Of a stretch of DNA of 64,000 bases, positions 29,230-55,790 are shown piece by piece (positions within the stretch are counted from its first letter, which is position 1; each line of letters opens with the position of its first letter). The notes under the pieces were generated by a model. That model was given only the letters and a program-made list of their open reading frames with translations. It was not told the origin of the DNA and ran no database searches. The position numbers and the translations under genes are program-made. The DNA lies in NCBI GenBank assembly GCA_964016885.1, contig OZ024741.1, forward strand, positions 78,988,001 to 79,052,000, read 5' to 3'. Source of the DNA: Eledone cirrhosa. Its lineage: Eukaryota.

Positions 29230-29654
29230 TCTGACTTCCTAGAATATTTTTTCCTTTGATATTATATATACTTTTGATTTAATACCTATCTTAAATGATT
29301 ATAAGCGGAATTAAGACTGAATAACGATCAATATTTTTTTTTTTTTTTTACCAATCTAATTATGATATATTTTAAATAATTTATGAAACGTTTAAACCAA
29401 CTGCAATATTTTCTTCCAGTCACGTAACGCCCTATGTGTTGAGTTTTTTCTAGTCATATGCTTGGTGGTCATCGATCTGTCCAGCTCATTTGTCTACCAG
29501 CATATCATGAAAAAATTATACATTTTCTATGTATTTTATCTGAGGAGGACATGTTTTGCTTTATGTTATACATAAAACTTTACACCTTCGAAATATATAT
29601 AATGAAATAAATAGAGATGGTAAAGAGTATTATCTTTCGTTTATTATTATTATT

Positions 29655-31045
29655 AAATGGGCCGAGAGAGAGCTGTCCCTGAAAGGCCGGGCGGAGGTGG
29701 CGAATGCGTACATCGCATCCGTCATCTGCTACCGCCTCACCGTCGTCCCTTGCCCCGGCCCAACTCTCACCAAAAAGGAGCGCCTCCTCTTCCGCTTTTT
29801 GTGGAAGGGACGCGCTCCAATGATCAGACGATCCATCTGCTGTCAACACCGTTGCGTGGAGGACTGGGCATGCCATGGTTGATGGTGCGCAAATATGCGC
29901 TGAGGCTGCGACATCTCTGGTGCTTCCTTGACGGTGAACAGGTGTGGTCGCCGTTCGCCAGGCACGTTTTCCCACAGCTCGTCTCATTGAAGGAGCTGCA
30001 GTCCTGGGTCAGGAAAAGACCGAGGGATAGCGTTTGGAAACTGGAATGTCTCCAGGCGTTCACTGCCCTCTGCCAGCTGGGCACCAGTATCGGTGGAACA
30101 TCCACCTCGGCGTTCTATAGAAGACTAGTGGAGGGGAAAAGCGACGACGTTCTCGGAGAGATCCTGGGCGTCGAAGAAAATCAGCTGTTTGCTCTCTTCC
30201 GGAGAACTTTCAGCCCAGGGCCTATGGATAACTTCCAAAAATCCCTGGCTTGGCAGTGCTACCGGGGAGCGTTGCCGGTTCGAGATAAGATCTACAGTCA
30301 CGGAAGTGCTGTCAGCCGAGCCTGTCCGAGATGCGCGCAGAGCGACGAAACCGTCGAGCACGCACTCGTTCAGTGCCCGAGTATTGCTGACCTGTGGAGC
30401 TATGTCGAACAGTTGCTGTCGCGTGTAGGACTGATCCGGTTATCGACTGAGTCCATTGTGCAGATGGTCTCTTCGTCTTCCTTCGAGGAGGAATGGCAAG
30501 TGGTTTTCATCTTCCTGGTGTCCATGGCGAAAGAGATTGTGTGGTGGACAAGGTTGAAAGGGTTAAAGACAGACATTTTTCTCTTCGGCGAATCCCTGAT
30601 TAACTTTTTCAAGTTTCACTTGAAGAGGAAAATCAGGGTGGAGAGGCAAGTGCTGTCTTCTAGCAAGTTTTTTGAAAGGTGGGTGAATGTAGCGAGAATG
30701 GTCCGAGTGAACGGGACTTCTCTGAATATACGCCTGTAGTTTGAGAAATGGAAAAATTGAGAGAGGGTGTTTGTCCTGGTCGTCAGGGTGGCCGTGGTCT
30801 TTTGTGTGGGTTTCGCCACATTTAACCCTCGGAGGTTTCCTCCATATTGGGGAATTTTTAAATTGTTTCAATTTTCATTTCTATTGTTTATATATATATA
30901 TATGTTTCTATGTCTTTTCCTTTTCTTTTCTTATATAAATAATAAAAAACTTTACACGCACAATACCCATATCGTACCGTCCTGTACCGTCCTGTGTCGT
31001 CCGTAATGTTTTTCTTGATGTAAGCTCTTGTGGCCAATAAAGAAA

Positions 31046-31047
<2 letters not shown>
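29655..31047 (+). mobile_element. Tx1-clade LINE copy A, 5'-truncated, divergent subfamily
   Basis: ORF2 C-terminus (KWAERELSLKGRAEV; CPRCAQSDETVEHALVQC) with one frameshift; ends AATAAAGAAATC then (ATT)14; (TTA)n at its 5' junction (29641-29654). Confidence 0.92.
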
Positions 31048-31090
<43 letters not shown>

Positions 31091-31091
<1 letters not shown>

Positions 31092-33490
31092 AGCTGCATT
31101 TAACTTGCTTTATGTTCATTTGAGTTATCAACAAGGTCTGCCATGTTCAAGAAAGAACATACATACTCATACATGCATCTTTAGTGTTTAGACTTGTGAT
31201 GTACTTATATTGACAGAATCTTCCTTAGTATATGGGCAGTTCCCATTAGTACTATTTTTTGTATTTCTCCTATACGCGGGTTTCCTGGGATTTGCGATAA
31301 GTAATCATTAGACCCCTTAGGTATCATTCCTAGAGCGCCTACAACCACTGGTATTGTTTTAGTTCTCAATTTCCACATTTTTCCAATTTCTATCTCCAGG
31401 TCCTTATACTTGCTGAATTTTTCAAATGTTTTTATAGATACATTCTTGTCTATTGGAACGGACATATCAATTAGCAGGCATACCCTCTTTTTATAGTCCT
31501 TCAATATTATATCAGGTCTATTTGCATCTATTTTTCGGTCTGTTTGGATGCTAAAGTTCCACAAGATTGAGATGCGATCTTTTTCAAGTATGGGAGGTGG
31601 TTGATGCTCCCACCAATTCTTTTGATGGGGCAGGTCAAAATGCTTACACATTATCCAATGTATGTATTGTGCAGCTCTGTCATGCCTGTTTAGGTATTCG
31701 GTTGGAGCTATAGGACTGCACATTGAAATTATATGGTCAATGGTCTCTGGTTGTTTTTTACATACACGGCATAATGGGCTGCATCCATTTTTTATTATGT
31801 TGGCTTGGTAATTTTTTGTTGGCAGACACTGATCTTGTGCTGATATAATCAGTCCTTCAGTCTCCGATTTCAGTCCAGAGGATGCCAACCACTGATGGGT
31901 TAAAGTTTTGTCAACATCAGGATTGTTAGCTCGTTCTGGGTATTTTCCATACAGAGGCTTTTCTTGCCATTTCTTAGCCAGTTTCTGTAGCAGTTCTTTC
32001 TTTGCAGTTACTTTTACCTGCTTTGCTTTTTCTGTGTTTTCCATTTCAGCAGTAAATGGGACTTCTGAAATGTGTAGTCCATTACTGTATCTTTGTGCAT
32101 CTTTTGTAATGGAGTATGATCTTTTGATGCTTTCGTGTTTCAAAACGAGTTTGATCATCCAATCATGTGATTCCCTTAGATATGTAGATAATCCAATTGT
32201 TGCAGTTTTCAACGCAATGTCCTACTGGATTAACCCACGTCCTCCTTCTTTCCTAGGGAGATATATTCTATCTGTATCTGCCTTAGGGTGATGCATTCTG
32301 TGCATGGTTAAGAATTTTCGAATTTTTGTATCGAGCCTACGGATCTCTGTGCTTGACCAGTTGATGACATTGTAACTGTAGGTTACTACTGGTATGGCAA
32401 GCGTGTTTATGGCATCGATCCTATTCCTTGCATTCAATGCCGTTAAGATTTCTCTTACTCTGCGGTAACATTCCTTCCTTATCCTTTCCCTCATTGTCGA
32501 GTGCTTGATTCCGTCTCCTTCACAAACACCTAGATATTTGTAAGTTTCCTCTTGATCAAGTTCTCTTATCACATTCCCTCGATCAAGATTAATGTCTGAA
32601 CTTTTCAGCAGCTTTCCTCTAGTGAACGTTGCTTTGGCGCATTTATCTAGCCCAAACTCCATTTTAATATCATCACAGTGGATAATAGCCCTTGCAATTG
32701 TTCATCATTTTTTGCAAATAGTTTCAGGTCATCCATGTAGAACAAGTGATTAATGGTTTTGTCATAGACTTTATATCCATGCTTTGTTTCATTGAGCATT
32801 TTACTTAATGGTATAAGTGCGATGCAGAATAAAAGCGGTGATAAAGAGTCACTCTGAAAAATTTCACAATTAATATTAACTTCTCCAGCTTCCAGTGATT
32901 TTGTTTCACTATTCAAAAGGAGTGTCGTTTTCCATGTCTTCATACTGAATGACAAAAACCTCCTGACAACGGGGATATTTTGAAAATCTCTAAACATTTT
33001 TCAATCCAACTGTGTGGCAAACTATCGAATGCTTTTTTTATAATCTATCCAAGCAATTGATAGATTTTTGTGTCTATTATGACAATCTTCCAGTATCATT
33101 TTGTTAACCAAAAGCTGATCCTTTCAGCCATATGAGCCTCGTTTACACCTTTTCTGCTCAATGGGAAATAGGTCTTTTGTTATCAGGTGGTCATATGTAT
33201 ATTCAGTTAGGAATGATGTTAAAATTTTATACATTGTGGTCAAGCAAGTTACGGGTCTGTAATTTTTGGGATTGTTTGTCTCATCATTCTTCGGAAGCAG
33301 GAATGTAATGCCGTTAACTAGCCATGATGGTATCTTTTCTGGCTCCTTAACTATTTCATTGTAAAGTTGGGCTAACAGCTCATGAGACTCTGTGAAGGCA
33401 TTTATCCAAAAATTTTGTATTTTGTCTTTTCCTGGAGATTTCCATTTGCTGGTTTTTCTTAGAGCCAAACGCAACTGTTCAACTGTTATA
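31091..33490 (-). mobile_element. R4/Dong-clade LINE family 1, 5'-truncated and decayed
   Basis: RT (KSPGKDKIQNFW, NYRPVTCL, IFQSDSLSPLLF, HLFYMDDLKL, YKYLG), CCHC (CRVCKKQPETIDHIISMC), RLE (RHD, NRPD, LIDMS, KFSKY); (ATT)n on both sides. Confidence 0.93.
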
Positions 33491-33539
<49 letters not shown>

Positions 33540-36500
33540 GGCGACCTACGTAAGAAATCGTATCATCGCGAGCTCCGCAAATGTTTGTTGTTTTCGTTTG
33601 TTTAAAATTGCCATATATGGAAAATTTTTGTTGTTAACTGTTTATAAGGTCACAAAATTTGCTTTCGGAAAAGGACACTCAAAAAGAATGGGGCCTTGAG
33701 CCCAAAATTTTAACTTTTATAATTATCAAACGACAAATTTCTTTGAAAAAAAATCATGGACGACTCACAGTCACACCTTCCTCACAGACTAACACCTCAC
33801 ACCGACACCACCATTGTAAATATTACTACGTTTGCCAACACTAAAAATATAAGCAGTAGCAATAATTTAAATTTGTCTCATGCAGACATTAATTTCCCGT
33901 CATTACCGATGACTGCAGGTGTTGAATCCGCCACCCCCACCACCACCACCACAGAGACAACAGAAACAAAAGAAAAAAAAATTAACTCGTGACATCGAAA
34001 TGGATTCACCCGGAATGGACTCTTCCACACCGAACACCACTGACGCCAACCACACCACAACTGAAACTAAAAATAACAATAACAAAAATAACAATAACAA
34101 CAACAGCAACAACAACAATGAGAATAACATCGTGTCATTTGCGAAGGCAGCCAAAAAATGCGAAACAATCCAGGTAACACAGGAGGAATTAGATGAAGCC
34201 AAGAGAATCGTAAAGAAAGATGGGTACAGGGTCAGCCTCACCCCCCTCCACCAAATACAATGGAGCATCGTCACCTATGCACCGTGTCTTGTCGGACGAT
34301 TAACATAAAATCGCGCCGAGTGGAACGGGCATCCGAGTCCCAAATCCCAAAAGCTTTGGGACATGTGTGGGCAAAAAACCCTCACATCAGACGTGGGCAG
34401 AAATATGGAACCGTGGAAGTGTTCTTTGGAACACCACAGGAGGCCAGAGAACACTGCATGGCCCCATTAAGAAGTGACGACTTCACACTCGTCCCAAGCT
34501 ATTGTGGCCAGAGACTCGTAAAATCCGGGTGACCCACGTTCCACCAGCCATCGAAATTCCCTGGCTAATGGCTGCCGTCCTCGCCGGCATCGAGGCCAAC
34601 ACCAAGATAATCGAAATAGCGAAAGAAAAGCAGGATAACTGGTCCGGATCTGGGATGGAGCTGCTGATCCAAGCGGACCATAAAAGCATTGAGGAGATCC
34701 CAGAGGTAATAGACCTCACTGACGGCAGCCACCTCACCGTAATCGCCGAGGGCAGAAGGCCTAGGTGTGTCGTTTGTGGTTAAGTAACCCACCTAAGGGC
34801 TTTCTGCTCTCAGGCTAAAAGGTTGAGGCCACCTCTCTTACCCACCCTTGTGTCTCAACCATCAACACCACCAGCAGCAGAAATGGCAGCAACAACTGTA
34901 GCAGCAACAACAGAAGCAACTGTAACAGCAACAACCCCAGCAACAGTAATAAAACTAACACCACCACCACCCAATGCACCAGGACTAGCACCAGCGCCTA
35001 CACCATCCACCACACCACAACCAAAACCAACGCCTGTGGAGGATTTTCCACTCCCCTACCTATCGCAACTGGAAACAGATTGTGACGACGAGAAGTGGGA
35101 AACGGTATCAGGAAAAAAGAAAAAAGAAACCAAAAAAGAAAAAATTCTCTTCCTTCCCCCTCCAAAAACAAAATACAGAGGGAAACAAATAAACTATCAA
35201 ACAAAAAAGTTAGGACAGCTATGCCACCATCCACACTAGCATCACCAACCCCATCACCACAAACACAAACACAATCACCATCATTAACCCCTACACCACC
35301 ATCACCAACACCACAAAAGTCACCAAAAAGCGAAACAGAAACAAACCCACAACAAACGCAAACAAAACAAAACAACCAAAACGATACACACTACACAGCA
35401 TTAAATTTGAACGGTGGATTGGCAGTATCGATAGAGGGTCGGACACCATGTTTTCCAACATAGTTACGTCCTTTTACGATCTGAGTTCAAATCGCGCCGA
35501 GGTTGACTTTGCCTTTCATCCTTACGGGTCGATAATATAAAGTACCAGTAATACACTGGTTAATTGCTGGCCTTGTGCCAAAAGTAGAAACAATTAAATT
35601 TGAACAACAACCAATTATTACACTACATCTAACACAACACCGGCATCACAGAAAAAGACTACACACACCCCAAAAGTTCACACCACCTACACACATACAA
35701 ATCACTCGTATCACACAGAAAACGTACACGAAACTAAAACAAAAATTCCCCAAAGACATCGGAGACTTCCGACAAGCACTCTCCAGGAGGATTTATAAGG
35801 ACATCCTTCCGGAGGATTCCAGAAGCAGTGAAAAGGATGGACAAACCATCCTTCCTCTACGAGAAGTAAGGTAAGTGGTCTTTCCCATCTTCCCCACTCC
35901 ATTTCAACATGACCTCACTCAGAATAGGCAGCATAAATGCGCGTGGCTTGGGGTCGTCATGGAAGCAGGGCCACCTGCTCAACGACCTCAGGTCACTACA
36001 CATATATGTAGTGGCCATCAGCGAGACCAGAATCACCGAAGCAAGAGCCTTTGCACCGATCTTCGGCGGCTACGATATGTACGCATCTCCCAGCCGTCCT
36101 GGATCGGGGGTAGGAGTTGCTGTGCTTTTTCGGAGAGGTTTAGATCTCACCATACGGGCCATCTTCCTGGGCCAAGAAGGTAAGTTGGTGGTGCTGGACG
36201 TGACCAGCGGAGACGGGCAAGCTTTCAGGCTAGTGGCCGTCTATGCCTAGACAGGAGCAGGGCGGCCTGATTTCTTCCGGCGTCTGGAGACCTCTCTTGG
36301 AACGTCCAGCTCTTTAGTGTTAGTGGGCGACTGAAACGGGATCTTAGATGCACGCTGGGACTGTGTGGGATTAGCGAATATGGGAGGAGGGTGCAAGAGC
36401 CTCACCAACCTGCTCAGGCGTTTTGGACTGTCTGACAGGTACCGATTGGATTTCCCGAATGTGCCAATGTGGACTTGGACAAACTGCATAGGGTCATCCA

Positions 36501-39500
36501 GATCATATCTAGATAGAGTATTTTGTAGGGGAATAGATAGGTCTAGCATAGGCTGTCCACAATTCAAGATAGTCAGCTACACGGACCACAAATTCGTGAT
36601 ATGTGTGCTTGACTTAGATAGGCTTTATAGACGAGTACTCGGCTACTGGAAGCTAAACGCGTCCTTACCAGCGCGCAAGGCCTACAGAGACCGGATTAGC
36701 GAACTAGTTAAGCGGGCGTTGACGGGGGCCATTGTCAACAACAAGTGGTGGTTTGCTCTGAAAAGAGCGATTAGAATAGAGTCCATTAGGTTTAGTAAGG
36801 CTTTAGCAACAGAGAAAAATAGAGCAGAATGAGAACTATTTAGAAAATTAGACGAGGCGCTTAGCAAAGGCATCGTGACCGACGTACTTGCGGCGAAATT
36901 GGCCAATTCTTCAATGCAAAGCAAGAAGACTGCGTTGTCAGAGCTAGGGTGCGTGCTCTCAGACACGAGGGGACGAAAGCCGTTCAATGGGCCCGAGTGG
37001 CGGAGGCGCGTCGTGGCAACAAAGCCACGATCCGGTCTTTGGTGGACCACGACGGGCGCATGCTACTCGATCCTGGCAAATGTGTGAAGCTTTTCAGCGA
37101 CACTTCGCTTAGCTGTTCGGGGGCAGCGGCGGGCCGGATCGAGGGATGGACTTTAGTGTCTACCTCGACGGACTGCCGGGGCTCTCGGCCACTGAGGTGG
37201 AGTGTTGCGAAAAGCCGATAACAGCCGCTGAAGTCCGGGAGCCAGTGACTGGCTGCACAAGGGGTAAATCGCCTGGTTTGGATGCTCTGCCCTATGAACT
37301 TTACGTACAGATGCCAGACTATTTCGAAGGCCTCTTGGCGGACGTCTACTGCGACTGGCAGCAGAACGGGAGAATTCCCAGCTCTGTGAGCCGAGGAGCT
37401 GTGCCGCTGCTGAGAAAGGATCCGAACAAGGGGGTTAACAAAGATAATTTTAGGCCCATAACGCTGCTAAACACAGAGTTCAAGATTTTGGCCAAGGTGC
37501 TAGCAAAGAGGTTGGCGCTTGTCGTTGGTGGTCTGGTGAGATAGGCGCAGACATGCGCCATTCCCGACAGATCCATCCACGACAACCTCCACCTCATGCG
37601 ATACATCGTGGAGAGGGTAGCTAAGGAACCTGGCACGGGTGGGTCCTTGATCAATTTAGATCGGTCGAAAGCTTTCGATAGGATCGACCATCGTTACCTA
37701 GCGGCAGTCCTGAGGGCGGCTGGCTTTGGGCACATCTTCAGAGGCTGGATCACTGCCATGCACAGCGACATCTGCTCTGTGGTGCGAGTGAACGGTCACC
37801 TTTCGGAACGGTTCAACATCATGCGCTCGGTCCGCCAAGGATGTCCCCTCTCGTCCCTCTTGTACGTATTGACTCTCGAGCCATTACTGCACAAACTGGA
37901 GACGTTGAGGGGGATCCCGCGCGAACTAGGATGCGGAATATCCGTGTCAGCATATGCGGACGATGTCACCGTAGTGGTGTCGAACGCCAAACACATCGAG
38001 GCGATCGGCACTACACTAAGAGAATACGAAGCCGTGACAGGAACAATGATCAACCAGGAAAAGTCAGTGGGCCTGCAGCTCGGCACCTGGAGAGGCAGGT
38101 CGATGCCGTCCAACAGCGTCTTCGGGCGCTGAACGGACGGACCGGTTAAATTGCTAGGGGTCTGGTTCGGTCCGGACCTCCAGACGGACAAAAACTGGGA
38201 CGAGGTGACGAGCAGGGTGGCTTCTCTCACCCTGAAATGGGCGGAGAGGTAGCTATCCCTGAAAGGTCGAGCGGAGGTGTCTAACGCGTATATCGCGTCC
38301 GTAATCTACTACCGCCTGACCGTCGTACGTTGTCCATAGCCCCGCCTGACTGCGCTGGAGCGTTTGCTCTTTCGCTTTTTGTGGAAGGGACGCACTCCGA
38401 TGGTCAGGCGGTCCATCTGCTGTCAACACCCGCTACGTGGAGGGCTGAGCATGCAGGTGGCTGATGATGCGCAGACACGCCCTCAGGCTACGACTTCTCC
38501 ACCTCTTCCTCGACGGTGATCAGTTGTAGTCGCCGTTTGCTTGACGCGTCTTTCCCCAGCTCGTCTCCTTGACGGAGCTGCAGTCCTGGGTCAAGCGAAG
38601 ACCGAGAGGGAGCGCTTGGAGACTGGAATGTCTTCAGGTGCTCGCAGCCCTCGACTAATTAGGCAATGTGATCGGTGGAAACTCCACCTTGGCGTTCTAT
38701 AGAGGATTAGGGAAGAGCGACGACGTACTTGGGGAAACTCTAGGCGTCGACGAAAATCAACTAGCCAATCTCTTCGGAAGAACTTTCGGGCCGTGGCCTA
38801 TGGACAACTTCCAGAAATCCCTGGCCAGGCAGTGCTACCGAGGAGCTTTGCCAGTTCGGTATAAACTCTACAGGCATGGAGGTGCCGTCAGCCGGGCAAG
38901 TCCGAGATGCGCGCAGGCCGACGAAAACGTCCTGCACGCACTCGTCAAGTGTCCGAGCATTACTGACTTGTGGGTTTATGTCGAACACCTGCTGTCGCGT
39001 GTAGGACAGATCCAGCTATCAGCTGAGTCCGTAGTGAGAGTTGCCCCCTCCCCTTCCTTTAGCCGGGAAGGGCAGGCAGTTTTTATCTGTCTGGTGGCCA
39101 TGGCGAAAGAGATAGTATGGTAGACACGTTTGAAAGGGCTGAAGACGAGTACTTACTTCTTCGGTGATGCCCTGATTAACTTTTTCAAATTTCATTTGAA
39201 AAGGAAAATTAGGGTAGAGAGGGAAGTGTTCTCTTCCCAGCATTTTGTTGAAAGATGGGTGAGAGAGGCAAGAATGGCCCGAGTGAATGGGCCTACTCTG
39301 AGTATGTGTCTGTAAATTAAATGTGGAAAACTGGGAGAGGACACTTGCCCTGGTGGTCAGGGTCACTGTGGCTTTTTAATGGGCTTTCTCCACGAATGTC
39401 CCTCGGTATTGGGGAATTTTTTATTGTTATTTTTTTGTAACATCCTCTGTTTTTGTTTTTTTACACGCAGAAATGCCATTTTGTACCCTCCTGTATTGTC

Positions 39501-39555
39501 CTCTACTGTCCTTAATGTCTACTTTATATAAACCCTTGTAGTTAATAAGGAAAGC
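33540..39555 (+). mobile_element. Tx1-clade LINE copy B, full-length but decayed, with distinct ORF1 and 5'UTR
   Basis: Broken ORF1 (33756-35874, knuckle remnant CVVCG*VTHLRAFC) and broken ORF2 (35909-39315) collinear with copies C/D; starts after (ATT)16, ends AATAAGGAAAGC + (ATT)5. Confidence 0.93.
35413..35592 (+). mobile_element. tRNA-derived Meta-like SINE inserted in Tx1-B ORF1
   Basis: A/B boxes and central domain; 13-bp TSD ATTAAATTTGAAC at 35400-35412 and 35593-35605. Confidence 0.92.
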
Positions 39556-39570
39556 ATTATTATTATTATT

Positions 39571-40478
39571 GTTCTTTGAGTCTCAGTCATTGATGTTAGT
39601 TAACTGGAAAGTTTGTTGAAATGAATATCAAGCCACTACCAGCAGCCTCAGATATTCAGGACGTATCGGAGGGTTCTTGCTGTTCCCAGCAAGCATGCCT
39701 TTTGAAGTGTTCCAAAAAGCGGGGCGGGGCCAATGTTCTTTAACCATCCCTGGAAACTTTTTGAGATAGTACCTAGTGCGCCTTTGACAATCGGGACCAC
39801 TTTGACTTCATGGCAGTTCCAAATCCTTTTTACCTCCGACTTTAAATCCTGGTATCGGTTAATTTTCTCCCTCTCCTTCTCTTGCACTCTCGTGTCGAAT
39901 GGGCAGGCAACATACACAATCAGGCACGATCTTTTTTCTTTGTCCAAAACCACCAGGTTAAGTTTATTGTGTTCCAGTTTCTTGTCCGTCTGTATCCTAA
40001 AATCCCACCTTCACCTGATCGTTTTTTATCACCGACTCTGGCTTATGCTCAAACCACTTCTCAGAATGTGGTAAATTGTTTACTTTGCATAGGTGCCAGT
40101 GGATCACCCTGCCCATCACATCATGTCTCCAGCCTTTATAGTGAGTCTGGGCTAGGTGTTTACACTCGGATACAATGTGAGCCACAGTCTCCTCTCACCC
40201 TCCACAGATCCTGCACAGTGAGCTAGCCTCCTCCTTGTAAATATGGTATTTCAGCCACTTCGTTTTGAGGGCCTGCTCTTGCGCAGCCATTAGTATTCCT
40301 TCTGTAGCCTTTTTAAAGTCTCCTCTTTTCAACCAGTTCCATGTCTGTGGATCTCTGAATTCAGTTTTCTCAAAGAAGGTATTATGAAAGGATTTTTCAT
40401 GAAGGTTGCTCTTTCTCCTTGTTGTTATTTCCTCCTTGGACATCCCCTGGTCTATTGTCCTCTCCTTCAGTACAATTC

Positions 40479-40480
<2 letters not shown>
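39571..40480 (-). mobile_element. R4/Dong-clade LINE family 2, 3' fragment
   Basis: WLKRGDFKKATEGILMAAQEQAL, CRICGG*EETVAHIVSEC, RHD, VACPFD..EKINRYQDL, VVPIVKGALG; (ATT)n on both sides. Confidence 0.9.
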
Positions 40481-40524
<44 letters not shown>

Positions 40525-46289: not shown

Positions 46290-46549
46290 ACTAAAGGTGG
46301 AAAACTGGGAGAGGGCACTTGCCTTGGTGGTCAGGGTCATTGTGGCTTTTTACTGGGCTTTCTCCACAAATGTCCCTCCAAAGTCTCCCCCCTATTGGGG
46401 AATTTTTCATTGTTATTTTCATTGTTATTTTTGTTACATCCTCTGTTTTTGTTTTTTTACACGCAGAAATGCCCATTTGTACCGTCCTGCATTGTCCTGC
46501 ACTGTCCTTAATGTCTACTTTATGTAAACCCTTGTGGTTAATAAAGAAA

Positions 46550-46590
<41 letters not shown>

Positions 46591-46805
46591 GAATGCCATG
46601 GTTGACGGAGGCTCGGCTCTGTAAGGTATAGTAATTTTTAACCGTTAAAACAATTGTAAATTGTTTAAAACTTGAACCAAATTGTTGATAAAGACACCCT
46701 CCTCCTCGTGAGAGGGGTCTTTCTGTCCGTTATTTGGCCCTTCGGGGTTAAATAACCAGTTATTGGGGTTTTGTACCCAAAATTTCATTTTAAACAAAAA
46801 ACAAC

Positions 46806-48902
46806 ATGGCTACGAAAAAGAAATTTCATACGTCACTCCCACTCATTCCGTCTTCTTCTTCCTCAATCATCACTACAGCAGAGAGAAGATTGTCTCTCTC
46901 CCTCCCTTCTTTAAATGTGTCTCTCTCCCTCCCTTCTCTTTCGCAAGTGACGAAAGAAAAGAAAAGTCTCGTGCAAAGCGTGCAAGGTTTCTCCACGACG
47001 ACGACGACAGCGACGAAACAGGTGTGCGGGAAATACGAAAACCCAGTTCATTCGTCTGACGTCAGGAATAATAGCAGTAGCAGCCGTAATAACAACTGCA
47101 ACAGTGACAATGAAAACAACAGTAGCAGCCGCAACAGCATCACCAGCAGTATAAACAACAACAGCATTAGCAGCAGCAACACCAACAACAACCACAGCAA
47201 CAGCGGCGGAGGCAGTAGTCGTAGTACCTGCAGCAACAACAAAAGTACCAGCAGCTCTGACGACAACAACAACAGCAGAGAAAAACCAATCTCATTTGCA
47301 GGTATTGCGAAAAACTTGGAAACAATCCTCATAACAAATGAGGAATTAGAGGAAGCGAAGAAGATGGTGACAAAGAACGGACACCGAGCAATCTGCAAGG
47401 CAGCGGAAAAATTTTTCAAAACCCAAGAGCACTGTACGGTCACGTACCGTACAGTAAGTACAAAATCCCGTAGGGTGGAAAGAGCCACAGAGGCCCAAAT
47501 ACAAAAAGCCTTGGGGTCTGTGTGGCAGCGGAAAACGCACATCACCCGAGGCAAAAAATATGCCACCGTAGACGTACTTTTTGCCACACCCCAGGAGGCA
47601 AAGGCCCAATCAGTAGTGACCCTAAGGAGCGAGGAAATGGTGTTGGTGCCCTCCTACTGCGGGCAAAAAATTGTGAGGGTCAAACTGACCCACGTCCCCC
47701 CCGGAATGACCCCTTCTTGGCTGGCCGCGTCTGTCCTAATCGGAATCGAGGACAAAACAACTGTACTGCAAGTACAGAAAAAAGTAAGAGAAGATTGGGT
47801 CGGCTCCTCCATTGAGATGCTAATCCAAACCAACCAGGAGTGCATCGAAGCTATCCCGGATGTGATAGACTTCGATAACGGCACTCAACTGCCCATAAGT
47901 GTTGAGGGCAAACGCCCGAAATGCTTTCGCTGTGGATCGAAGACTCACCTCAGGGCCTTCTGCAACGAGAAGACCCTGAGAAAGGAGAAAACCCCCCTCC
48001 TTCCGAATCCGGCTCCACGGCTACCAGCAACAGGACAAGCGGCAACCAGGAACGATAGGTCCGTGGCACCCATACCCACGCCACGGAAATCAAAAACAGC
48101 AGCAGCAGTGGAAATATTAACAACAACAACAGCAATACCAAATGCAGCTGCAACAGAGACTCCAGTGCAAACATCACCAACAACAACAAGTGAAAGAGTG
48201 GAGTTGGTACCCCTCCCCGACCTTACAGAATCAGACATGGAGTGTGAGGTGGGAGAGGGATGGCAAAAGGTCGCAAGAAGGCACAAACGCAGAAGCAGCG
48301 CATCGTCGCCTTTGAAAAGGGAGGAAAGAAATGAGAAAAGGGTAAAGTCTACTGCAAAGAGACCCACAGCAGCAACACCACCAACACCATCACCACCCAC
48401 ACCAGCACCACCATCACCACCGGCGACAACCCCACCGCCAACAACACCTTCAACACCACCACCACAAGCACCAACATCGCAAACACAACAACAAAACACA
48501 CACACCCAGCAACAACGACAAGAAAATAGCAGAACCACACCCCACCCCCAGAAAAACAAATGCACGGCAATAAATACACACAACAAGAAACTAATGACTT
48601 ACATAATTGAACACACAGACATTTCACAACAGGACTACATAATACCAGCACCAATCAAAACGCCAACTAACATAAGACTGCTAAAAATAGCACAGAAACA
48701 ATACACAAACATTAAAACGAAATTCCCCAACGCAGTTGGTGATTTCAGGGACCTAGGAGGAACCATCAATCGAAGAGTATACTCAGACATTGTCTTAGAA
48801 GAGCCGACGACCAGCCGAAGGGACGATTCAACGGTCCCTTCACCAGACGATCAAGTGAAAAGGGATGTAAAAACCATCCCTCCTCTACCAAAAGTACGGT
48901 AA
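46806..48902 (+). CDS. Tx1-D ORF1, nucleic-acid-binding protein with CX2CX4HX4C knuckle (698 aa)
   Basis: CFRCGSKTHLRAFC; S/N-rich N-terminus and P/T/Q-rich linker; lies 35 nt upstream of ORF2. Confidence 0.92.
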   Translation: MATKKKFHTSLPLIPSSSSSIITTAERRLSLSLPSLNVSLSLPSLSQVTKEKKSLVQSVQGFSTTTTTATKQVCGKYENPVHSSDVRNNSSSSRNNNCNSDNENNSSSRNSITSSINNNSISSSNTNNNHSNSGGGSSRSTCSNNKSTSSSDDNNNSREKPISFAGIAKNLETILITNEELEEAKKMVTKNGHRAICKAAEKFFKTQEHCTVTYRTVSTKSRRVERATEAQIQKALGSVWQRKTHITRGKKYATVDVLFATPQEAKAQSVVTLRSEEMVLVPSYCGQKIVRVKLTHVPPGMTPSWLAASVLIGIEDKTTVLQVQKKVREDWVGSSIEMLIQTNQECIEAIPDVIDFDNGTQLPISVEGKRPKCFRCGSKTHLRAFCNEKTLRKEKTPLLPNPAPRLPATGQAATRNDRSVAPIPTPRKSKTAAAVEILTTTTAIPNAAATETPVQTSPTTTSERVELVPLPDLTESDMECEVGEGWQKVARRHKRRSSASSPLKREERNEKRVKSTAKRPTAATPPTPSPPTPAPPSPPATTPPPTTPSTPPPQAPTSQTQQQNTHTQQQRQENSRTTPHPQKNKCTAINTHNKKLMTYIIEHTDISQQDYIIPAPIKTPTNIRLLKIAQKQYTNIKTKFPNAVGDFRDLGGTINRRVYSDIVLEEPTTSRRDDSTVPSPDDQVKRDVKTIPPLPKVR

Positions 48903-48937
48903 GTGGTCTTTCCCATCTTTTCCACTCTATTTTAAAC

Positions 48938-51900
48938 ATGACCTCACTCAGAATAGGCAGCATAAATGCGCGTGGCTTAGGGTCGTCATGGAAGCAGGGT
49001 CACCTGCTCAACGACCTCAGGTCACTAAACATAGATGTAGTGGCCATCAGCGAGACCAGAATTTCCGAAGCACGGGCCTTCGCACCGATCTTCGGCGGCT
49101 ACGATGTGTACGCATCTCCCAGCCGTCCTGGATCCGGTGGAGGAGTTGCTGTGCTTTTTCGGAGAGGATTGGATCTCGCCATACGGGCCATCTTCCTGGA
49201 CCCAGAGGGTAAGCTGGTGGTGCTGGACGTGACCAGCGGAGACGGGCAAGCTTTCAGGCTAGTGGCCGTCTATGCCCCGACAGGAGCAGGGCGGCCTGAT
49301 TTCTTCCGGCGTCTGGAGACCTTTCTTGGAACGTCGCGCTCTTTAGTGTTAGTGGGCGACTGGAACGGGATCTTAGATGCACGCTGGGACTGTGTGGGAT
49401 TAGCGGATAGGGGTGGAGGGTGCAAGAGCCTCACCAACCTGCTCAGGCGTTTTGAACTGTCTGACAGGTACCGATTGGATTTCCCGAATGTGCCAATGTG
49501 GACTTGGACAAACCGCATAGGGTCATCCAGATCATATCTAGATAGAGTATTTTGTAGGGAAATAGATAGGTCTAGCATAGGCTGTCCACAATTCAAGATA
49601 GTCAGCTACACGGACCACAAATTCGTGATCTGTGTGCTTGACTTAGATAGGCTTCATAGACGAGGACCCGGCTACTGGAAGCTAAACGCGTCCTTACCAG
49701 CGCGCAAGGCCTACAGAGACCGGATTAGCGAACTAGTTAAGCGGGCGTTGACGGGGGCCATCGTCAACAACAAGTGGTGGTTTGCTCTGAAAAGAGCGAT
49801 TAGAATAGAATCGATTAGATTTAGTAAGGCTTTAGCAATAGAGAAAAATAGAGCAGAGGGAGAACTAGTTAGAAAATTAGACAAGGCGCTTAGCAAAGGC
49901 ATTGCGACCGACGTGCTTGCGGCGAAATTGGCCCTTGACCAATTCTTCAATGCAAAGCACGAAGGCTGCGTTGTCAGAGCAAGGGTGCGTGCTCTCAGAC
50001 ACGAGGGGACGAAAGCCGTTCAATGGGCCCGAGTGGCGGAGGCGCGTCGTGGCAACAAAGCCACGATCCGGTCTTTGGTGGACCACGACGGGCGCATGCT
50101 ACTCGATCCCGGGCAAATGTGTGAAGCTTTTCAGCGACACTTCGCTCAGCTGTTCGGGGGCAGCGGCGGGCCGGATCGAGGGATGGACTTTAGTGTCTAC
50201 CTCGACGGACTGCCGCGGCTCTCGGCCACTGAGGCGGAGTGTTGCGAAAAGCCGATAACAGCCGCTGAAGTAAGGGAGGCAATGACTGGCTGCACAAGGG
50301 GTAAATCGCCTGGTTTGGATGGTCTGCCCTATGAACTTTACGTACAGATGCCAGACTTGTTCGGAGGCCTCTTGGCGGACGTCTACTGCAACTGGCAACA
50401 GAACGGGAGAATTCCCAGTTCTGTGAGCCGAGGAGCGGTGGCACTGCTGAGAAAGGATCCGAACAAGGGGGATAACATAGAAAATTTCCGGCCCATAACT
50501 CTGCTAAACACAGAGTTTAAGATTTTGGCCAAGGTGCTAGCAAAGAGGTTGGCGCTTGTCGTTGGTGGTCTGGTGGGAGAGGCGCAGACATGCGCCATTC
50601 CCGACAGATCCATCCACGACAACCTCCACCTCATGCGATACATCGTAGAGAGGGTAGCTAGGGAACCTGGCACGGGTGGGTCCTTGATCAATTTAGATCA
50701 GTCGAAAGGTTTCGATAGGGTCGACCATCGTTACCTAGCGGCAGTCCTGAGGGCGGCTGGCTTTGGGCCCGTCTTCAGAGGCTGGATCGCTGCCATGCAC
50801 AGCGACATCTGCTCTGTGGTGAGAGTGAACGGTCACCTGTCGGAACCGTTCAACATCATGCGCTCGGTCCGCCAAGGATGTCCCCTCTCGTCCCTCTTGT
50901 ACGTATTGACTCTCGAGCCATTACTGCACAAACTGGAGACGTTGAGGGGGGTCCCGCGCGAACTAGGATGCGGAAGATCCGTATCAGCATATGCGGACGA
51001 TGTCACCGTAGTGGTGTCGAACGCCAAACACATCGAGGCGATCGGCACTACACTAAGAGAATACGAAGCGGTGACAGGAGCAATGATCAACCAGGAAAAG
51101 TCAGTGGGCCTGCAGCTCGGCACCTGGAGAGGCAGGTCCATGCCGTCCAACAGCGTCGTCGGACGCTGGACGGACGGACCGGTTAAATTGCTAGGGGTCT
51201 GGTTCGGTCCGGACCTCCAGACGGACAAAAACTGGGACGAGGTGACGAGCAGGGTGGCTTCTCTCACCCAGAAATGGGCCGAGAGGAAGCTATCCCTGAA
51301 AGGTCGAGCGGAGGTGGCTAACGCGTACATCGCGTCCGTCATCTGCTACCGCCTGACCGTCGTACCTTGTCCTAAGCCTCGCCTGACTGTGCTGGAGCGT
51401 TTGCTCTTTCGCTTTTTGTGGAAGGGACGCGCTCCGATGGTCAGGCGGTCCAACTGTTGTCAACACCCGCTACGTGGAGGGCTGGGCATGCCGTGGCTGA
51501 TGATGCGCAGGCACGCGCTCAGGCTACGACATCTCCACCTCTTCCTCGACGGTGATCAGGTGTGGTCGCCGTTTGCTAGACGCGTGTTTCCCCAGCTCGT
51601 TTCCTTGACGGAGCTGCAGTCCTGGGTCAAGCGAAGACCGAGAGGGAGCGCCTGGAGACTGGAATGTCTTCAGGCGCTCACAGCCCTCGACCAATCGGGC
51701 AATGTGATCGGTGGAAACTCCACCTCGGCGTTCTATAGAGGATTAGTGGAGGGGAAGAGCGACGACGTACTTGGGGAAACTCTAGGCGTCGACGAAAATC
51801 AACTAGCCAATCTCTTCAGAAGAACTTTCGGGCCAGGGCCTATGGACAACTTCCAGAAATCTCTGGCCTGGCAGTGCTACCGAGGAGCCTTGCCAGTTCG

Positions 51901-52357
51901 GGATAAACTCTACAGGCATGGAGGTGCCGTCAGCCGGGCATGTCCGAGATGCGCGCAGGGCGACGAAACCGTCCTGCACGCACTCGTCCAGTGTCCGAAA
52001 ATTGCTGACTTGTGGGTTTATGTCGAACACCTGCTGTCGCGTTTAGGACGGATCCGGCTATCATCTGAGTCCATCGTGAGGATTGCCCCGCCCTCCTCCT
52101 TTAGCCGGGAAGGGCAGGCAGTTTTTATCTGCCTGGTGGCCATGGCGAAAGAGATAGTATGGTGGACACGTTTGAAAGGGCTGAAGACGAGCACTTACCT
52201 CTTCGGTGATGCTCTGATTGACTTTTTCAAATTTCCTTTGAAAAGGAAAATCAGAGTAGAGAGGGAAGTGCTCTCTTCCCAGCATTTTGTTGAAAGATGG
52301 GTGAGAGAAGCAAGAATGGCCCGAGTGAATGGGCCTACTCTGAGCATATATCTGTAA
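48938..52357 (+). CDS. Tx1-D ORF2: APE endonuclease, reverse transcriptase, CCHC (1139 aa)
   Basis: Same motifs as copy C; KAFD changed to KGFD. Confidence 0.97.
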   Translation: MTSLRIGSINARGLGSSWKQGHLLNDLRSLNIDVVAISETRISEARAFAPIFGGYDVYASPSRPGSGGGVAVLFRRGLDLAIRAIFLDPEGKLVVLDVTSGDGQAFRLVAVYAPTGAGRPDFFRRLETFLGTSRSLVLVGDWNGILDARWDCVGLADRGGGCKSLTNLLRRFELSDRYRLDFPNVPMWTWTNRIGSSRSYLDRVFCREIDRSSIGCPQFKIVSYTDHKFVICVLDLDRLHRRGPGYWKLNASLPARKAYRDRISELVKRALTGAIVNNKWWFALKRAIRIESIRFSKALAIEKNRAEGELVRKLDKALSKGIATDVLAAKLALDQFFNAKHEGCVVRARVRALRHEGTKAVQWARVAEARRGNKATIRSLVDHDGRMLLDPGQMCEAFQRHFAQLFGGSGGPDRGMDFSVYLDGLPRLSATEAECCEKPITAAEVREAMTGCTRGKSPGLDGLPYELYVQMPDLFGGLLADVYCNWQQNGRIPSSVSRGAVALLRKDPNKGDNIENFRPITLLNTEFKILAKVLAKRLALVVGGLVGEAQTCAIPDRSIHDNLHLMRYIVERVAREPGTGGSLINLDQSKGFDRVDHRYLAAVLRAAGFGPVFRGWIAAMHSDICSVVRVNGHLSEPFNIMRSVRQGCPLSSLLYVLTLEPLLHKLETLRGVPRELGCGRSVSAYADDVTVVVSNAKHIEAIGTTLREYEAVTGAMINQEKSVGLQLGTWRGRSMPSNSVVGRWTDGPVKLLGVWFGPDLQTDKNWDEVTSRVASLTQKWAERKLSLKGRAEVANAYIASVICYRLTVVPCPKPRLTVLERLLFRFLWKGRAPMVRRSNCCQHPLRGGLGMPWLMMRRHALRLRHLHLFLDGDQVWSPFARRVFPQLVSLTELQSWVKRRPRGSAWRLECLQALTALDQSGNVIGGNSTSAFYRGLVEGKSDDVLGETLGVDENQLANLFRRTFGPGPMDNFQKSLAWQCYRGALPVRDKLYRHGGAVSRACPRCAQGDETVLHALVQCPKIADLWVYVEHLLSRLGRIRLSSESIVRIAPPSSFSREGQAVFICLVAMAKEIVWWTRLKGLKTSTYLFGDALIDFFKFPLKRKIRVEREVLSSQHFVERWVREARMARVNGPTLSIYL

Positions 52358-52605
52358 ATTAAAGGTGGAAAACTGGGAGAGGGCACTTGCCTTGGTGGTC
52401 AGGGTCATTGTGGCTTTTTACTGGGCTTTCTCCACAAATGTCCCTCCGAAGTCTCCCCCCTATTGGGGAATTTTTCATTATTATTTTTTGTTACATCCTC
52501 TGTTTTTGTTTTTTACACGCAGAAATGCCCATTTGTACCGTCCTGCATTGTCCTGCACTGTCCTTAATGTCTACTTTATGTAAACCCTTGTGGTTAATAA
52601 AGAAA

Positions 52606-52654
<49 letters not shown>

Positions 52655-53870
52655 CATTTTTATTTTCTTTCATTATTGTTTCTGAGATACATGCCGAGTG
52701 TCTTCCTGACACCTAGAGCAAATAAATTCACAGTGTGCATTGGTAAGCCAGTTAATACAGCACATTGATTATAATAAAATAAAAAAACAGTATACATATA
52801 TACACATGTGCATATGCATATGTAAATACAAGGAGGGATATCAATCTTACAGAGATAGTGCTCTTCTCAATACGTGTGCAGTACCAGTCAAAACAATTTT
52901 TTGCACCTCGTGCAGAGAGGGTAAACCAGGAATCATTCGCAAATATTGTTCTGTTCCTTTCTTGATCATTCCCAGTCCTCCCACAATCACTGGTATCGTA
53001 ACGGCTTTGAAGTGCCTCATTTTCTCAATTTCAATAAGCAGATCTTTATATTTTCGTAGCTTGTCAAATTCTTTTGCCGCGATATTGTGATCACATGGGA
53101 TGCTCATATCTATCAATAAACAGACCTCGTTATATTGATCTTTTACAATGATGTCAGGTCTATTTGCTTTTATGGGTCCTGTCAGTATGTACAGGAAAGT
53201 CCCAGAGAATTGTTACTTTTTCTCCTTCAGTTACAGCCCCAGGGTGATGATTGTACCACTTGTCTTCATCTTTGATTTTGTAATGCCGACATATTACCCA
53301 GTGTAGATATTGGCCAACTCTGTCATGTCTATATTTGTATTCTACTGGTGCTAAAACTTTACATCCAGAGACTAAGTGATCCACTGTTTCAACCTCAGCA
53401 TTGCAGAATCGGCACTTTGGGTTTATTCCGTTTCTCATCACATTGGCCTGGTAATTACGAGTCAATAAGCTTTTATCTTGGGCAGCTAAGATGAAGCCTT
53501 CACTCTCCGCCTTTAACGCTGAACTACGTAGCCACTGATGGGTGTGCTTTTGGTCAACATCAGCTTGTTTGCTACGGGCCACATATTTGCCATGCAGAGG
53601 TTTCTGCTCCCAACTTGATGCTAATTGTTCTTGCCCTTTTGCTTTTGCCAGTGATTTTATGTGCCTAGCAGCATCAGTTGCAACAGTTTCTTTAGTCTGT
53701 CCAGCCTGGGTATCAAGCATGAGATCAGTAGCATATTTTTTGCTCTCCTTCAAGATAGAATGTAACTTCTTACTTCTCTCATGCTTTTCAACAAGTTTCA
53801 GCATACAGTCGTTAGTTGTTTCAAGGTATTTGGCCAGTCCAATGATAGTGGTCTTGTAAGCAAGTTCAAA
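52655..53870 (-). mobile_element. R4/Dong-clade LINE family 3, 3' fragment
   Basis: WEQKPLHGKY, WLRSSALKAESEGFILAAQD, CRFCNAEVETVDHLVSGC, RHD, IDMSIPCD..KLRKYKDL; ATT repeats on both sides. Confidence 0.92.
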
Positions 53871-53913
53871 ATTATTATTATTATAATAATAATAATAATT
53901 ATTATTATTATTA

Positions 53914-55593
53914 CAGTTGCATTTATCTTGCTTTATGTTCATACGAGTTATCACCATGTCACAACCAGTGACCTCAAGAAACAACAAGGTCCGCCATGTT
54001 CAAGAAAGAACATACATACTCACACATGCATCTTTAGGTGTTTAGACTTGTGATGTACTTATATTGACAGAATCTTCCTTAGTATATGGGAAGTTCCCAT
54101 TAGTACTATCTTTTGTATTTCTCCTATACGCGGGTTTCCTGGGATTTGCGATAAGTAATCATTAGACCCCTTAGGTATCATTCCTAGAGCGCCTACAACC
54201 ACTGGTATTGTTTTAGTTCTCAACTTCCACATTTTTCCAATCTCTTTCTCCAGGTCTTTATACTTGCTCAATTTTTTAAATGTTTTTATAGATACATTCT
54301 TGTCTATTGGAACGGACATATCAATTAGCAGACATACCCTCTTTTTAAAGTCCTTCAGTATTATATCAGGTCTATTTGCATCTATTTTTCGGTCTTTTTG
54401 TATGATAAAGTTCCACAAGATTGAGATGTGATCTTTTTCAAGTACGGGGGGGGGGGGGGGGGGTTGATGCTCCCACCAATTCTTTTGATGAGGCAGGTCA
54501 AAATGCTTACACATTATCCAATGTATGTATTGTGCAGCTCTGTTATGTCTGTTTAGGCATTCGGTTGGAACTATAGGACTGCACATTGAAATTATATTAT
54601 CAATGGTCTCTGGTTGTTTTTTACATACACGGCATAATGGGCTGCACCCATTTTTTATTATGTTGGCTTGATAATTTTTAGTTGGCAGACACTGATCTTG
54701 TGCTGATATAATCAGTCCTTCAGTCTTTGATTTCAGTCCAGAGGATGCCAACCATTGATGGGTTAAAGTTTTGTCAACATCAGGATTGGTAGCTCTTTCT
54801 GGGTATTTTCCATACAGAGGCTTTTCTTGCCATTTCTTAGCCAGTTTCTGTAGCAGTTCTTTCTTTGCAGTTACTTTTACCTGCTTTGCTTTTTCTGTGT
54901 TTTTCATTTCAGCAATAAATGGAACTTCTGAAATTTGTAGTCCATTACTGTATCTTTGTGCATCTTTTGTAATGGTTTATGATCTTTTGATGCTTTCATG
55001 TTTCAAAACGAGTTTGATCATCCAAACATGTGATTCCCTTAGATATGTAGATAATCCAATTGTTGCAGTTCTCAAAGCAATAACTAACTGGATTAATCCA
55101 CGTCCTCCTTCTTTCCTAGGGAGATATATTCTATCTGTATCTGCTTTAGGGTGATGCATTCTGTGCATGGTTAAGAATTTTCTAATTTTTGTATCGAGCC
55201 TACTGATCTCTATGCTTGACCAGTTGATGACATTGAAACTGTAGGTTACTACTGGTATGGCAAGCGTGTTTATGGCATCGATCCTATTCCTTGCATTCAA
55301 TTCCGTTATTAAGATTGCTCTTACTCTGTGGTAACATTCCTTCCTTATCCTTTCCCTCATTGTCGAGTGCTTGATTCCGTCTCCTTCACAAACACCAAAA
55401 TATTTGTAAGTTTCCTCTTGATCAAGTTCTCTTATCACATTCCCCCGATCAAGATTAATGTCTGAACTTCTCAGCAGCTTTCCTCTAGTGAACGTGGCTT
55501 TGGTGCATTTATCTAGTCCAAACTCCATTTTAATATCATCACTGAACTGCTTCACAGTGGATAATAGCCCTTGCAATTACTCATCATTTTTTT
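53914..55593 (-). mobile_element. R4/Dong-clade LINE family 1, second 5'-truncated copy
   Basis: ORFs 54977-55576 and 54059-54907 nearly identical to 31205-32662; same 3'UTR; 3' end abuts (TAA)n, 5' end abuts (CA)n. Confidence 0.93.

Positions 55594-55790
<197 letters not shown>

What the first reader, a model, noticed from the sequence alone, without database searches (positions are those of the whole stretch)
29641..55593. 26-kb array of two retrotransposon clades sharing one (ATT)n target in opposite orientations
Seen order: (TTA)n > Tx1-A > (ATT)14 < Dong1 < (ATT)16 > Tx1-B > (ATT)5 < Dong2 < (ATT)14 > Tx1-C > (ATT)13 > Tx1-D > (ATT)15 < Dong3 < (ATT/AAT) < Dong1'. No LINE interrupts another. 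All Tx1 copies read (ATT)n and all R4/Dong copies read (TAA)n on their sense strand. Established: Dong targets TAA repeats; some Tx1 families target microsatellites; TRAS/SART insert in opposite orientations in telomeric repeats. Inference: an APE and an RLE nuclease converged on opposite strands of the same microsatellite, and each insertion leaves target on both sides, giving a self-extending interstitial array. I do not know of a description of this pairing.
Basis: partly seen in the sequence, partly recalled or inferred. Interest (0 to 1): 0.88.

Follow-up and report, generated by a model that had tools for sequence, protein, structure and literature searches.

The report
Two LINE lineages share ATT repeats
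Eight jumping genes of two unrelated kinds are stacked in one ATT repeat, each kind always facing its own way, and the same rule holds across this animal's genome, likely because their cutting enzymes and RNA tails use opposite strands of the repeat, so that each insertion would leave fresh landing sites for both.

Summary
The array is real: four Tx1/L1-type LINEs (+) and four Dong/R4-like LINEs (-), separated by (ATT)n. One correction: the right end (Dong1' 5' junction) has no repeat. 307 of 314 repeat-linked neighbour pairs obey the polarity, including 45 head-to-head Tx1/Dong junctions that tails cannot explain. 37 of 58 Dong copies have (AAT)>=3 at the 5' end (background 0.14%). Tx1-C and D are separate insertions, not a duplication.

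Refinements: full-length Tx1 copies have long upstream runs (20 of 21 with >=5 units), truncated ones less often (6 of 17). A co-oriented SINE inserts with 9-20 bp duplications that mostly start ATTATT. So the Tx1 target is probably a short motif, and the long 5' run may partly be carried on the RNA. Such arrays are common here, and the scan already noted this pairing on other DNA of this genome (30- and 40-kb arrays). Dong/(TAA)n, microsatellite-targeting Tx1 and opposite-facing TRAS/SART are published; an ATT-using Tx1 paired with Dong was not found in 8 searches. Nuclease specificity is inferred. New variant of a known kind.

The parts
29218..29655 (+). Older dispersed repeat whose end carries an imperfect ATT tract; likely seed of the array
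   Evidence: 40 paralogues scored; most of 19 paralogue loci shown end in TTATTA(C/T)TAT-like sequence and several took a SINE, Tx1 or Dong at that point
29641..29655 (+). (TTA)5, left target remnant
29656..31047 (+). Tx1-A, 5'-truncated, separate subfamily (77-80% to B/C/D)
   Evidence: (zf-RVT)
31048..31089 (+). (ATT)14, tail-to-tail spacer
31090..33490 (-). Dong1, 5'-truncated inside the RT, broken frame; CCHC and RLE motifs present
33491..33538 (+). (ATT)16 between two 5' ends (head-to-head); cannot be a 3' tail
33539..39555 (+). Tx1-B, full length, broken frames; ORF2 region 94% to C/D but a different 5' UTR/ORF1
35412..35604 (+). SINE (about 200 bp, ATT tail) inside Tx1-B, with a short target-site duplication
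39556..39570 (+). (ATT)5, tail-to-tail spacer
39571..40480 (-). Dong2, 5'-truncated, second Dong-like family (47 of 118 C-terminal residues identical to Dong1)
40481..40524 (+). (ATT)14 between two 5' ends (head-to-head)
40525..46551 (+). Tx1-C, full length and youngest member; ORF1 frame 40728-42542 (604 aa stop to stop, shorter than the usual 702), open ORF2 frame 42675-46289 (APE-RT-zf)
46552..46590 (+). (ATT)13, head-to-tail spacer
46591..52607 (+). Tx1-D, full length; ORF1 frame 46794-48902 (702 aa, one CX2CX4HX4C knuckle) and ORF2 frame 48743-52357 both open
52608..52652 (+). (ATT)15, tail-to-tail spacer
52653..53870 (-). Dong3, 5'-truncated, third Dong-like family
53871..53912 (.). (ATT)4(AAT)5(ATT)5 spacer with a short inverted middle
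53913..55595 (-). Dong1', 5'-truncated, 94% to Dong1; no repeat at its 5' junction
55594..56047 (.). CA-rich dispersed repeat entered part-way; right edge, probably a deletion junction

Best explanation
This is a stack of eight separately inserted LINEs from two unrelated lineages, and the fixed opposite orientation around ATT repeats is a genome-wide rule, likely because each lineage nicks and primes on a different strand of the repeat. Shown: anatomy, polarity, repeats at truncated 5' ends, mixed ages, non-sister neighbours. Inferred mechanism (target-primed reverse transcription): the Tx1-type APE nicks the (AAT)n strand, probably at a T/purine step in a short motif (top strand ATTATT), and the element's (AUU)n RNA tail pairs with the freed 3' end, giving L1-like 9-20 bp duplications. 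The Dong-type RLE nicks the (TTA)n strand of longer repeats and primes a (UAA)n tail, sometimes deleting target at its 5' side. Each insertion splits a run and adds tail, so one target becomes two for both lineages and for an ATT-tailed SINE that probably rides on the Tx1 machinery. This array started at the ATT-like end of an older dispersed repeat and grew mostly by insertion between existing members.
For: Polarity: 307 of 314 repeat-linked neighbour pairs outside the window (Dong/Tx1 opposite 87 of 89; Dong/Dong same 72 of 73; Tx1/Tx1 same 31 of 31; SINE/Tx1 same 37 of 37; SINE/SINE same 30 of 30; Dong/SINE opposite 50 of 54), 45 of the Dong/Tx1 pairs head-to-head. 5' junctions of copies picked by their 3' end: Dong 37 of 58 with (AAT)>=3 (36 of them truncated copies), 1 ambiguous ATT; Tx1 truncated 10 of 17 with (ATT)>=3 and 0 of 17 with AAT, full-length 21 of 21. 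Copies picked by their 5' end: Tx1-C 28 of 28 with >=5 units in the same phase. Background for the same rule 27 and 28 of 20,000 random positions. Tx1-C differs from Tx1-D by 53 substitutions but from unlinked copies by 22. Best identity to other fetched copies alternates along the array: 91, 99, 93, 96, 99.8, 99.3, 91, 95%. SINE duplications found in 21 of 121 copies, 14 of them starting ATTATT in the 5' copy by my reading of the list; an 18-bp duplication starting ATTATT at a truncated Tx1, L020. SINE 3' end resembles Tx1 3' ends (shuffle p 0.0015-0.018 for three of four Tx1 references) and not Dong 3' ends (0.38-1.0). APE catalytic positions are invariant in 9 aligned proteins (their role is recalled from L1).
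Against: No biochemical evidence for either nuclease. 21 of 58 Dong copies and 7 of 17 truncated Tx1 copies lack a strict run at the 5' end (at least three of the Dong misses are chaining errors of my script). Samples are the best-scoring 30-40 hits of each search, so they lean to young copies and to copies with an intact searched end. In 38 arbitrary 10-kb windows most old Tx1-like fragments (68-84% identity) have no ATT run beside them, and 12 of 19 ATT/AAT runs have no library element beside them. Seven head-to-head Tx1/Dong junctions have no repeat. A tandem of at least seven Tx1-C copies on C2 repeats a 128-bp non-ATT spacer between near-identical neighbours (10-20 substitutions), which points to local duplication as a second way of growing. 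One Tx1 reference (TxE) showed no 3' likeness to the SINE (p 0.37).
Confidence: 0.75

Rival explanations
1. Tail-primer selection without specific nucleases: both nucleases cut loosely in AT-rich DNA, and only nicks whose 3' end can pair with the RNA tail go on to insertion, so the tail alone sets target and orientation.
For: Each lineage's tail equals its target. The SINE and truncated Tx1 need only about two units. RNA-target annealing helps priming in SART1 (PMC7265360, passages).
Against: Truncated Dong copies mostly have long runs upstream of the 5' end (24 of 38 with >=4 units), more than a few paired bases need. Endonuclease swaps move specificity in TRAS/SART (PMC7265360, passages). 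This rival changes only the determinant, not the array model.
Confidence: 0.3
2. The 5' (ATT)n of full-length Tx1 copies is largely carried on the RNA (transcripts start in the upstream repeat), so it is a leader and not target.
For: >=5 units upstream in 20 of 21 full-length versus 6 of 17 truncated copies from the same search (Fisher p 1e-4). L165, L169 and L180 have 7-17 units at the 5' side but only 1-4 at the 3' side.
Against: In L165 and L180 the 5' run can belong to a neighbour. Full-length joining may simply succeed more often in long runs. It cannot explain repeats at truncated 5' ends. No RNA 5'-end data; this adds to the best explanation and does not replace it.
Confidence: 0.4
3. 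Passive pile-up: random insertion plus survival in a neutral, repeat-rich region, the ATT runs being only 3' tails.
For: The genome is repeat-rich; the library covers about 7% of 380 kb of arbitrary windows.
Against: Head-to-head junctions hold the repeat (2 here, 45 elsewhere), orientation is fixed, and enrichment over 0.14% background is several hundredfold.
Confidence: 0.03
4. Assembly artefact or tandem duplication joined unrelated copies through identical ATT runs.
For: Repeats are join-prone; no independent read spans the junctions; duplication is seen at another locus.
Against: All eight members differ in sequence and truncation point; C and D are not sisters; mis-joins would not keep 98% polarity with unique truncated ends.
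Confidence: 0.04

Closest known systems
Dong (R4 clade, RLE): Bombyx Dong, DongAg, snail DongBg
   Same: Single ORF with RT, CCHC and RLE motifs; sits in (TAA)n read on its sense strand. TAA targeting by three Dong elements is stated in PMC3812793 (passage); Dong as R4 lineage in PMC3774820 (passages).
   Different: Three diverged families share the target here with an APE element facing the other way. 5' UTRs are 1.0-1.3 kb. No HDV-like ribozyme, reported for Bombyx Dong, was detected by Rfam or a crude pattern (inconclusive).
Microsatellite-targeting Tx1 families: Kibi (TC)n, Koshi (TTC)n, crocodilian Tx1 in (TTCC)n/(TTTC)n
   Same: Two-ORF APE LINE with preference for a simple repeat (PMC4494074, passages and section 15).
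   Different: Unit is ATT, which these passages do not list for Tx1; the repeat is shared with an RLE lineage; truncated copies and the SINE point to a short motif with L1-like duplications.
TRAS1/SART1 in (TTAGG)n
   Same: Two LINEs in one repeat in opposite directions, recognising only 2-3 units (PMC7265360, abstract and passages).
   Different: TRAS and SART are both R1-clade APE elements (recalled) at telomeres; here an APE and an RLE element share an interstitial microsatellite at many loci.
Crocodilian SINEU-3 / Tx1-Mar
   Same: A SINE sharing target preference with a Tx1 family, forming tandems by sequential insertion (PMC4494074, passages).
   Different: Target there is a Mariner transposon, not a microsatellite, and no opposite-facing partner is described in the passages seen.

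Membership tests
Tx1 clade (L1 group) | ORF2 with N-terminal APE, RT and C-terminal zinc-binding region, closest to L1-group proteins | tested here: met
   PF03372 + PF00078 + PF13966; best PDB match human L1 ORF2 over residues 5-854; catalytic columns invariant
Tx1 clade (L1 group) | Separate ORF1 with CCHC zinc knuckle (feature recalled) | tested here: met
   702-aa frame with one CX2CX4HX4C read directly; Pfam gave no family above cut-off
Tx1 clade (L1 group) | RT phylogeny groups with named Tx1 elements rather than other L1-group clades | not testable with these tools
   No named Tx1 reference came back; the label Tx1 rests on architecture and recall
Tx1 clade (L1 group) | Target preference (Kojima's rule: one sequence type in >20% of flanks, PMC4494074) | tested here: met
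   31 of 38 5' junctions with (ATT)>=3
R4 clade / Dong | Single ORF, RT followed by CCHC and PD-(D/E)xK RLE, no APE | tested here: met
   1141-aa frame in L128 and near-complete D1 frames; motifs in window copies; best PDB matches are R2 proteins, with a weak C-terminal match
R4 clade / Dong | Insertion in (TAA)n on the sense strand | tested here: met
   37 of 58 copies picked by 3' end and 38 of 53 picked by an internal 5' stretch; all 58 end in AAT-type tails
R4 clade / Dong | RT phylogeny with R4/Dong rather than HERO, NeSL or R2 | not testable with these tools
   No named reference
R4 clade / Dong | HDV-like ribozyme at the 5' end (shown for Bombyx Dong, PMC3774820) | tested here: inconclusive
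   No ribozyme family of that type in Rfam scans; a crude pattern without positive control found none in the first 420 nt
TRAS/SART telomeric pair | R1-clade APE elements in telomeric repeats | tested here: not met
   One partner has an RLE and no APE; the site is 79 Mb into a 416-Mb contig and the repeat is ATT

The most novel reading that the evidence does not exclude
An APE LINE, three RLE LINE families and a SINE form one genome-wide target-sharing community: the Tx1 RNA carries ATT repeats at both ends, so each full-length insertion plants new landing pads on both sides for itself, its SINE and the unrelated Dong families on the other strand. Two unrelated nucleases would then have converged on one microsatellite and steer thousands of insertions into self-made safe havens tens of kb long.
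Probability: 0.35. Interest if true: 0.68.

Novelty: new variant of a known kind. Interest (0 to 1): 0.5.

Why it matters
It adds a target (ATT) to the Tx1 repertoire and gives a natural case where an APE and an RLE element use the two strands of one repeat. Because young, coding-intact Tx1 copies are plentiful (13 of 25 full-length copies keep a frame of >=1195 aa), the open question of whether the nuclease or the RNA tail picks a microsatellite can be tested directly by tail and endonuclease swaps. It may also explain part of the uneven transposon landscape of such genomes, name a likely carrier for an abundant SINE, and warn that ATT microsatellite markers here often sit between mobile elements. 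It does not reveal a new class of element or chemistry.

Tried and rejected
Empty orthologous site: laying contigs of other runs on the left edge and on the Dong1/Tx1-B junction gave no bridging contig, because the tool cuts at repeats; no verdict. Paralogues of the left and right flanking repeats do not join to each other, so no empty site could be rebuilt. No RNA holder listed. Tandem duplication of C and D rejected. Named relatives: homologue searches, cluster look-up and the atlas gave no clade names. Ribozyme: one search used loci that lacked the true Dong 5' ends; repeated on four loci that hold them and with a crude pattern, both blank. My first Dong references were 5'-truncated by 1.0-1.3 kb, so the 'full 5' end' class for Dong is wrong; one search replaces it. 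The SINE motif label was shifted by a parsing error (2 of 10 flagged) and is not used; its listed duplications agree. One search gave 298 of 305 pairs including window loci; (window loci left out, another de-duplication) is used. No tRNA gene called in the window. Dual priming of a Tx1 and a Dong at one break was considered for the seven repeat-less head-to-head junctions and set aside: deletions are common in these copies and my sampling favours intact 3' ends. The original Dong paper was not held; Kojima and Fujiwara 2004 was seen only as cited; Repbase was not available and may already list ATT-associated Tx1 families. No supplements were read; those of PMC4494074 and PMC13282606 may list further targets or the same families.
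Full report
Observation. The four plus-strand elements are two-ORF LINEs whose ORF2 has an APE, an RT and a zinc-binding region and is closest to human L1 ORF2 among solved structures. Tx1-D keeps both frames open; Tx1-C keeps ORF2. The four minus-strand elements are 5'-truncated pieces of three families of single-ORF LINEs with RT, CCHC and an RLE-type C-terminus, closest to R2 proteins among solved structures. The names Tx1 and Dong rest on this architecture, on the target and on recall; no named reference could be placed in a tree. Two spacers (33491-33538, 40481-40524) lie between two 5' ends and cannot be 3' tails. The right end breaks the pattern: Dong1' joins a CA-rich dispersed repeat with no ATT. 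A SINE interrupts Tx1-B.

Setting. The window is G000:C2:78988001-79052000 in a 3.0-Gb assembly. Earlier scan notes call it octopus-like; I did not test this. First-look candidates numbered 674 for the Tx1-C 5' end, 1,966 and 192 for two Dong 3' ends, and 1,601 and 1,028 for Dong 5' stretches; these are not copy numbers. Each search scored 40 and I took loci for the best 30 (10 more for Tx1), so samples lean young.

Test of target versus tail. Of 39 non-window Tx1 copies picked by the 3' end, the script called 19 full and 20 truncated. On inspection two 'truncated' ones were full-length with an internal change (L229, L236) and one was a chaining error and was dropped (L008). This left 21 full-length copies, all with (ATT)>=4 upstream, and 17 truncated copies, 10 with (ATT)>=3 and none with (AAT)>=3. 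All 28 non-window Tx1-C copies picked by the 5' end have 5-20 units ending in the same phase. Of 58 non-window Dong copies picked by the 3' end, 37 have (AAT)>=3 at the 5' end, one has a mixed run scored ATT, and 20 have neither. Of 58 picked by a 5' stretch, 5 ran off the locus, 38 had AAT, 1 had ATT and 14 neither; 27 of 35 full-length ones had a strict run. The same rule fires at 27 (ATT) and 28 (AAT) of 20,000 random positions. Among 314 repeat-linked neighbour pairs outside the window, 307 follow the rule; two of the seven exceptions are SINE pieces mislabelled by my library. Dong/Tx1 pairs split 45 head-to-head and 42 tail-to-tail.

How the array grew. Tx1-C and D differ at 53 sites, while C differs from unlinked copies at 22, so they are separate insertions. 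Best identity to any other fetched copy runs 91, 99, 93, 96, 99.8, 99.3, 91 and 95% from left to right: older-looking members at the ends and younger ones inside, a rough proxy because subfamilies were sampled unevenly and Dong3 had only two comparators. The left (TTA)5 is the end of an older dispersed repeat whose paralogues mostly end in an imperfect ATT tract, and several of these took a SINE, a Tx1 or a Dong at the same point. Arrays are common: 18 of 20 full-length Tx1-C copies have a Tx1, Dong or SINE neighbour across a repeat and 8 of 20 a Dong neighbour, and 1 of 38 arbitrary 10-kb windows hit a Dong-Tx1-Dong stack. A second Tx1 stack begins 5 kb to the right on the other strand and follows the same rule. 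At one other locus at least seven Tx1-C copies repeat a 128-bp spacer, so local duplication also adds copies.

What the Tx1 side recognises. A 200-bp SINE with an ATT tail always faces the Tx1 way (37 of 37 pairs) and mostly opposes Dong (50 of 54). Its last 40 bases resemble three of four Tx1 3' ends and no Dong 3' end. In 21 of 121 SINE copies a non-repeat duplication of 9-20 bp was found, and 14 start with ATTATT in the 5' copy by my reading of the list. A truncated Tx1 (L020) has an 18-bp duplication that starts the same way. This fits an L1-like nick on the AAT strand at a short motif, long repeats being hot spots because they hold many motifs (inference). Full-length copies have longer upstream runs than truncated ones (>=5 units in 20 of 21 versus 6 of 17, p 1e-4), which suggests that part of the 5' run is carried on the RNA; this is untested. 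Truncated Dong copies mostly sit behind long runs (24 of 38 with >=4 units), as expected for a repeat-specific element, but about a third lack a strict run, perhaps from deletions at the 5' junction (inference), as at this array's right end.

Against. Neither nuclease was assayed, and tail pairing alone could fix orientation. Old Tx1-like fragments in arbitrary windows mostly lack adjacent repeats, and 12 of 19 ATT/AAT runs there have no library element beside them. Seven head-to-head Tx1/Dong junctions lack a repeat. No independent read spans a junction.

Comparison with the literature. Dong targets TAA repeats, Kibi TC and Koshi TTC (PMC3812793, passages; that review lists Dong among APE elements, whereas PMC4640811 and PMC3774820, passages, place R4/Dong among RLE elements). 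Crocodilian Tx1 families prefer (TTCC)n/(TTTC)n, and a SINE there shares a Tx1 target and forms tandems (PMC4494074, passages and section 15). TRAS1 and SART1 insert in opposite directions in (TTAGG)n and need 2-3 units (PMC7265360, abstract and passages). A 2026 octopus annotation lists recently active Dong-R4 (5 families, 1,129 insertions) and L1-Tx1 (13 families, 421) and TE hotspots, with no target named in the passages seen (PMC13282606); PMC9115989 mentions a Dong element without a target (passages). PMC6410037 (passages) added nothing. Eight full-text searches found no ATT-targeting Tx1 or APE/RLE pairing in one microsatellite. Kojima and Fujiwara 2004, Repbase and supplements were not seen. 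The scan's own notes already describe this pairing in 30- and 40-kb arrays of this genome and the SINE-Tx1 link; they are leads, not support, and none were found for other genomes (first 12 kb only).

Verdict. Real, genome-wide and well supported as a pattern; each ingredient has a published precedent; the ATT-using Tx1 lineage, its probable SINE passenger and the opposite-strand sharing with Dong are the new part. New variant of a known kind, interest 0.5.

Noticed in passing
window 60786-64000 and L121 1-6718: A further Tx1 (B-type 5' end, 3' end lost) on the minus strand, preceded on its own strand by (ATT)5 and a Tx1-A-type copy: a second stack with the same polarity rule.
   Followed up: partly
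G000:C2 about 124.733-124.780 Mb (L224, L182, L175, L222, L223, L183): At least seven Tx1-C copies in tandem plus one Dong; four junctions repeat a 128-140 bp non-ATT spacer, and neighbours differ by 10-20 substitutions, suggesting unequal crossover or 5' transduction.
   Followed up: partly
L250 506-1500 and L283 about 280-1500 (oriented copies): The two Dong families, though far apart in protein sequence, share the start of a 1.0-1.3 kb 5' UTR; the D1 UTR contains a SINE fragment and the D2 UTR an internal tandem repeat of about 300 bp.
   Followed up: partly
window 33539-35800 versus 40525-42780: Tx1-B and Tx1-C/D share ORF2 at 94% but have unrelated 5' UTR and diverged ORF1: a 5'-module swap between subfamilies.
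   Followed up: no
L076, L096, L269, L044, L316, L132, L136: Seven head-to-head Tx1/Dong junctions with both elements truncated and no repeat between them; deletion is the simple reading, joint priming at one break is not excluded.
   Followed up: partly
window 17631-21152 (-): Broken frames with a PIF1-like helicase (E 1e-62), probably a Helitron remnant.
   Followed up: no
window 1187-1906 (-): Frame with several C2H2 zinc fingers, possibly an exon of a zinc-finger gene about 28 kb from the array.
   Followed up: no
L263, L268, L164, L180: Some full-length elements border (GAA/CTT)n instead of or next to the ATT run, hinting at tolerance for related triplets.
   Followed up: no
runs X1-X14: The Tx1-C 5' part is held by runs of several coded organisms (share 0.2-0.8), so the family is not confined to one sample.
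   Followed up: no
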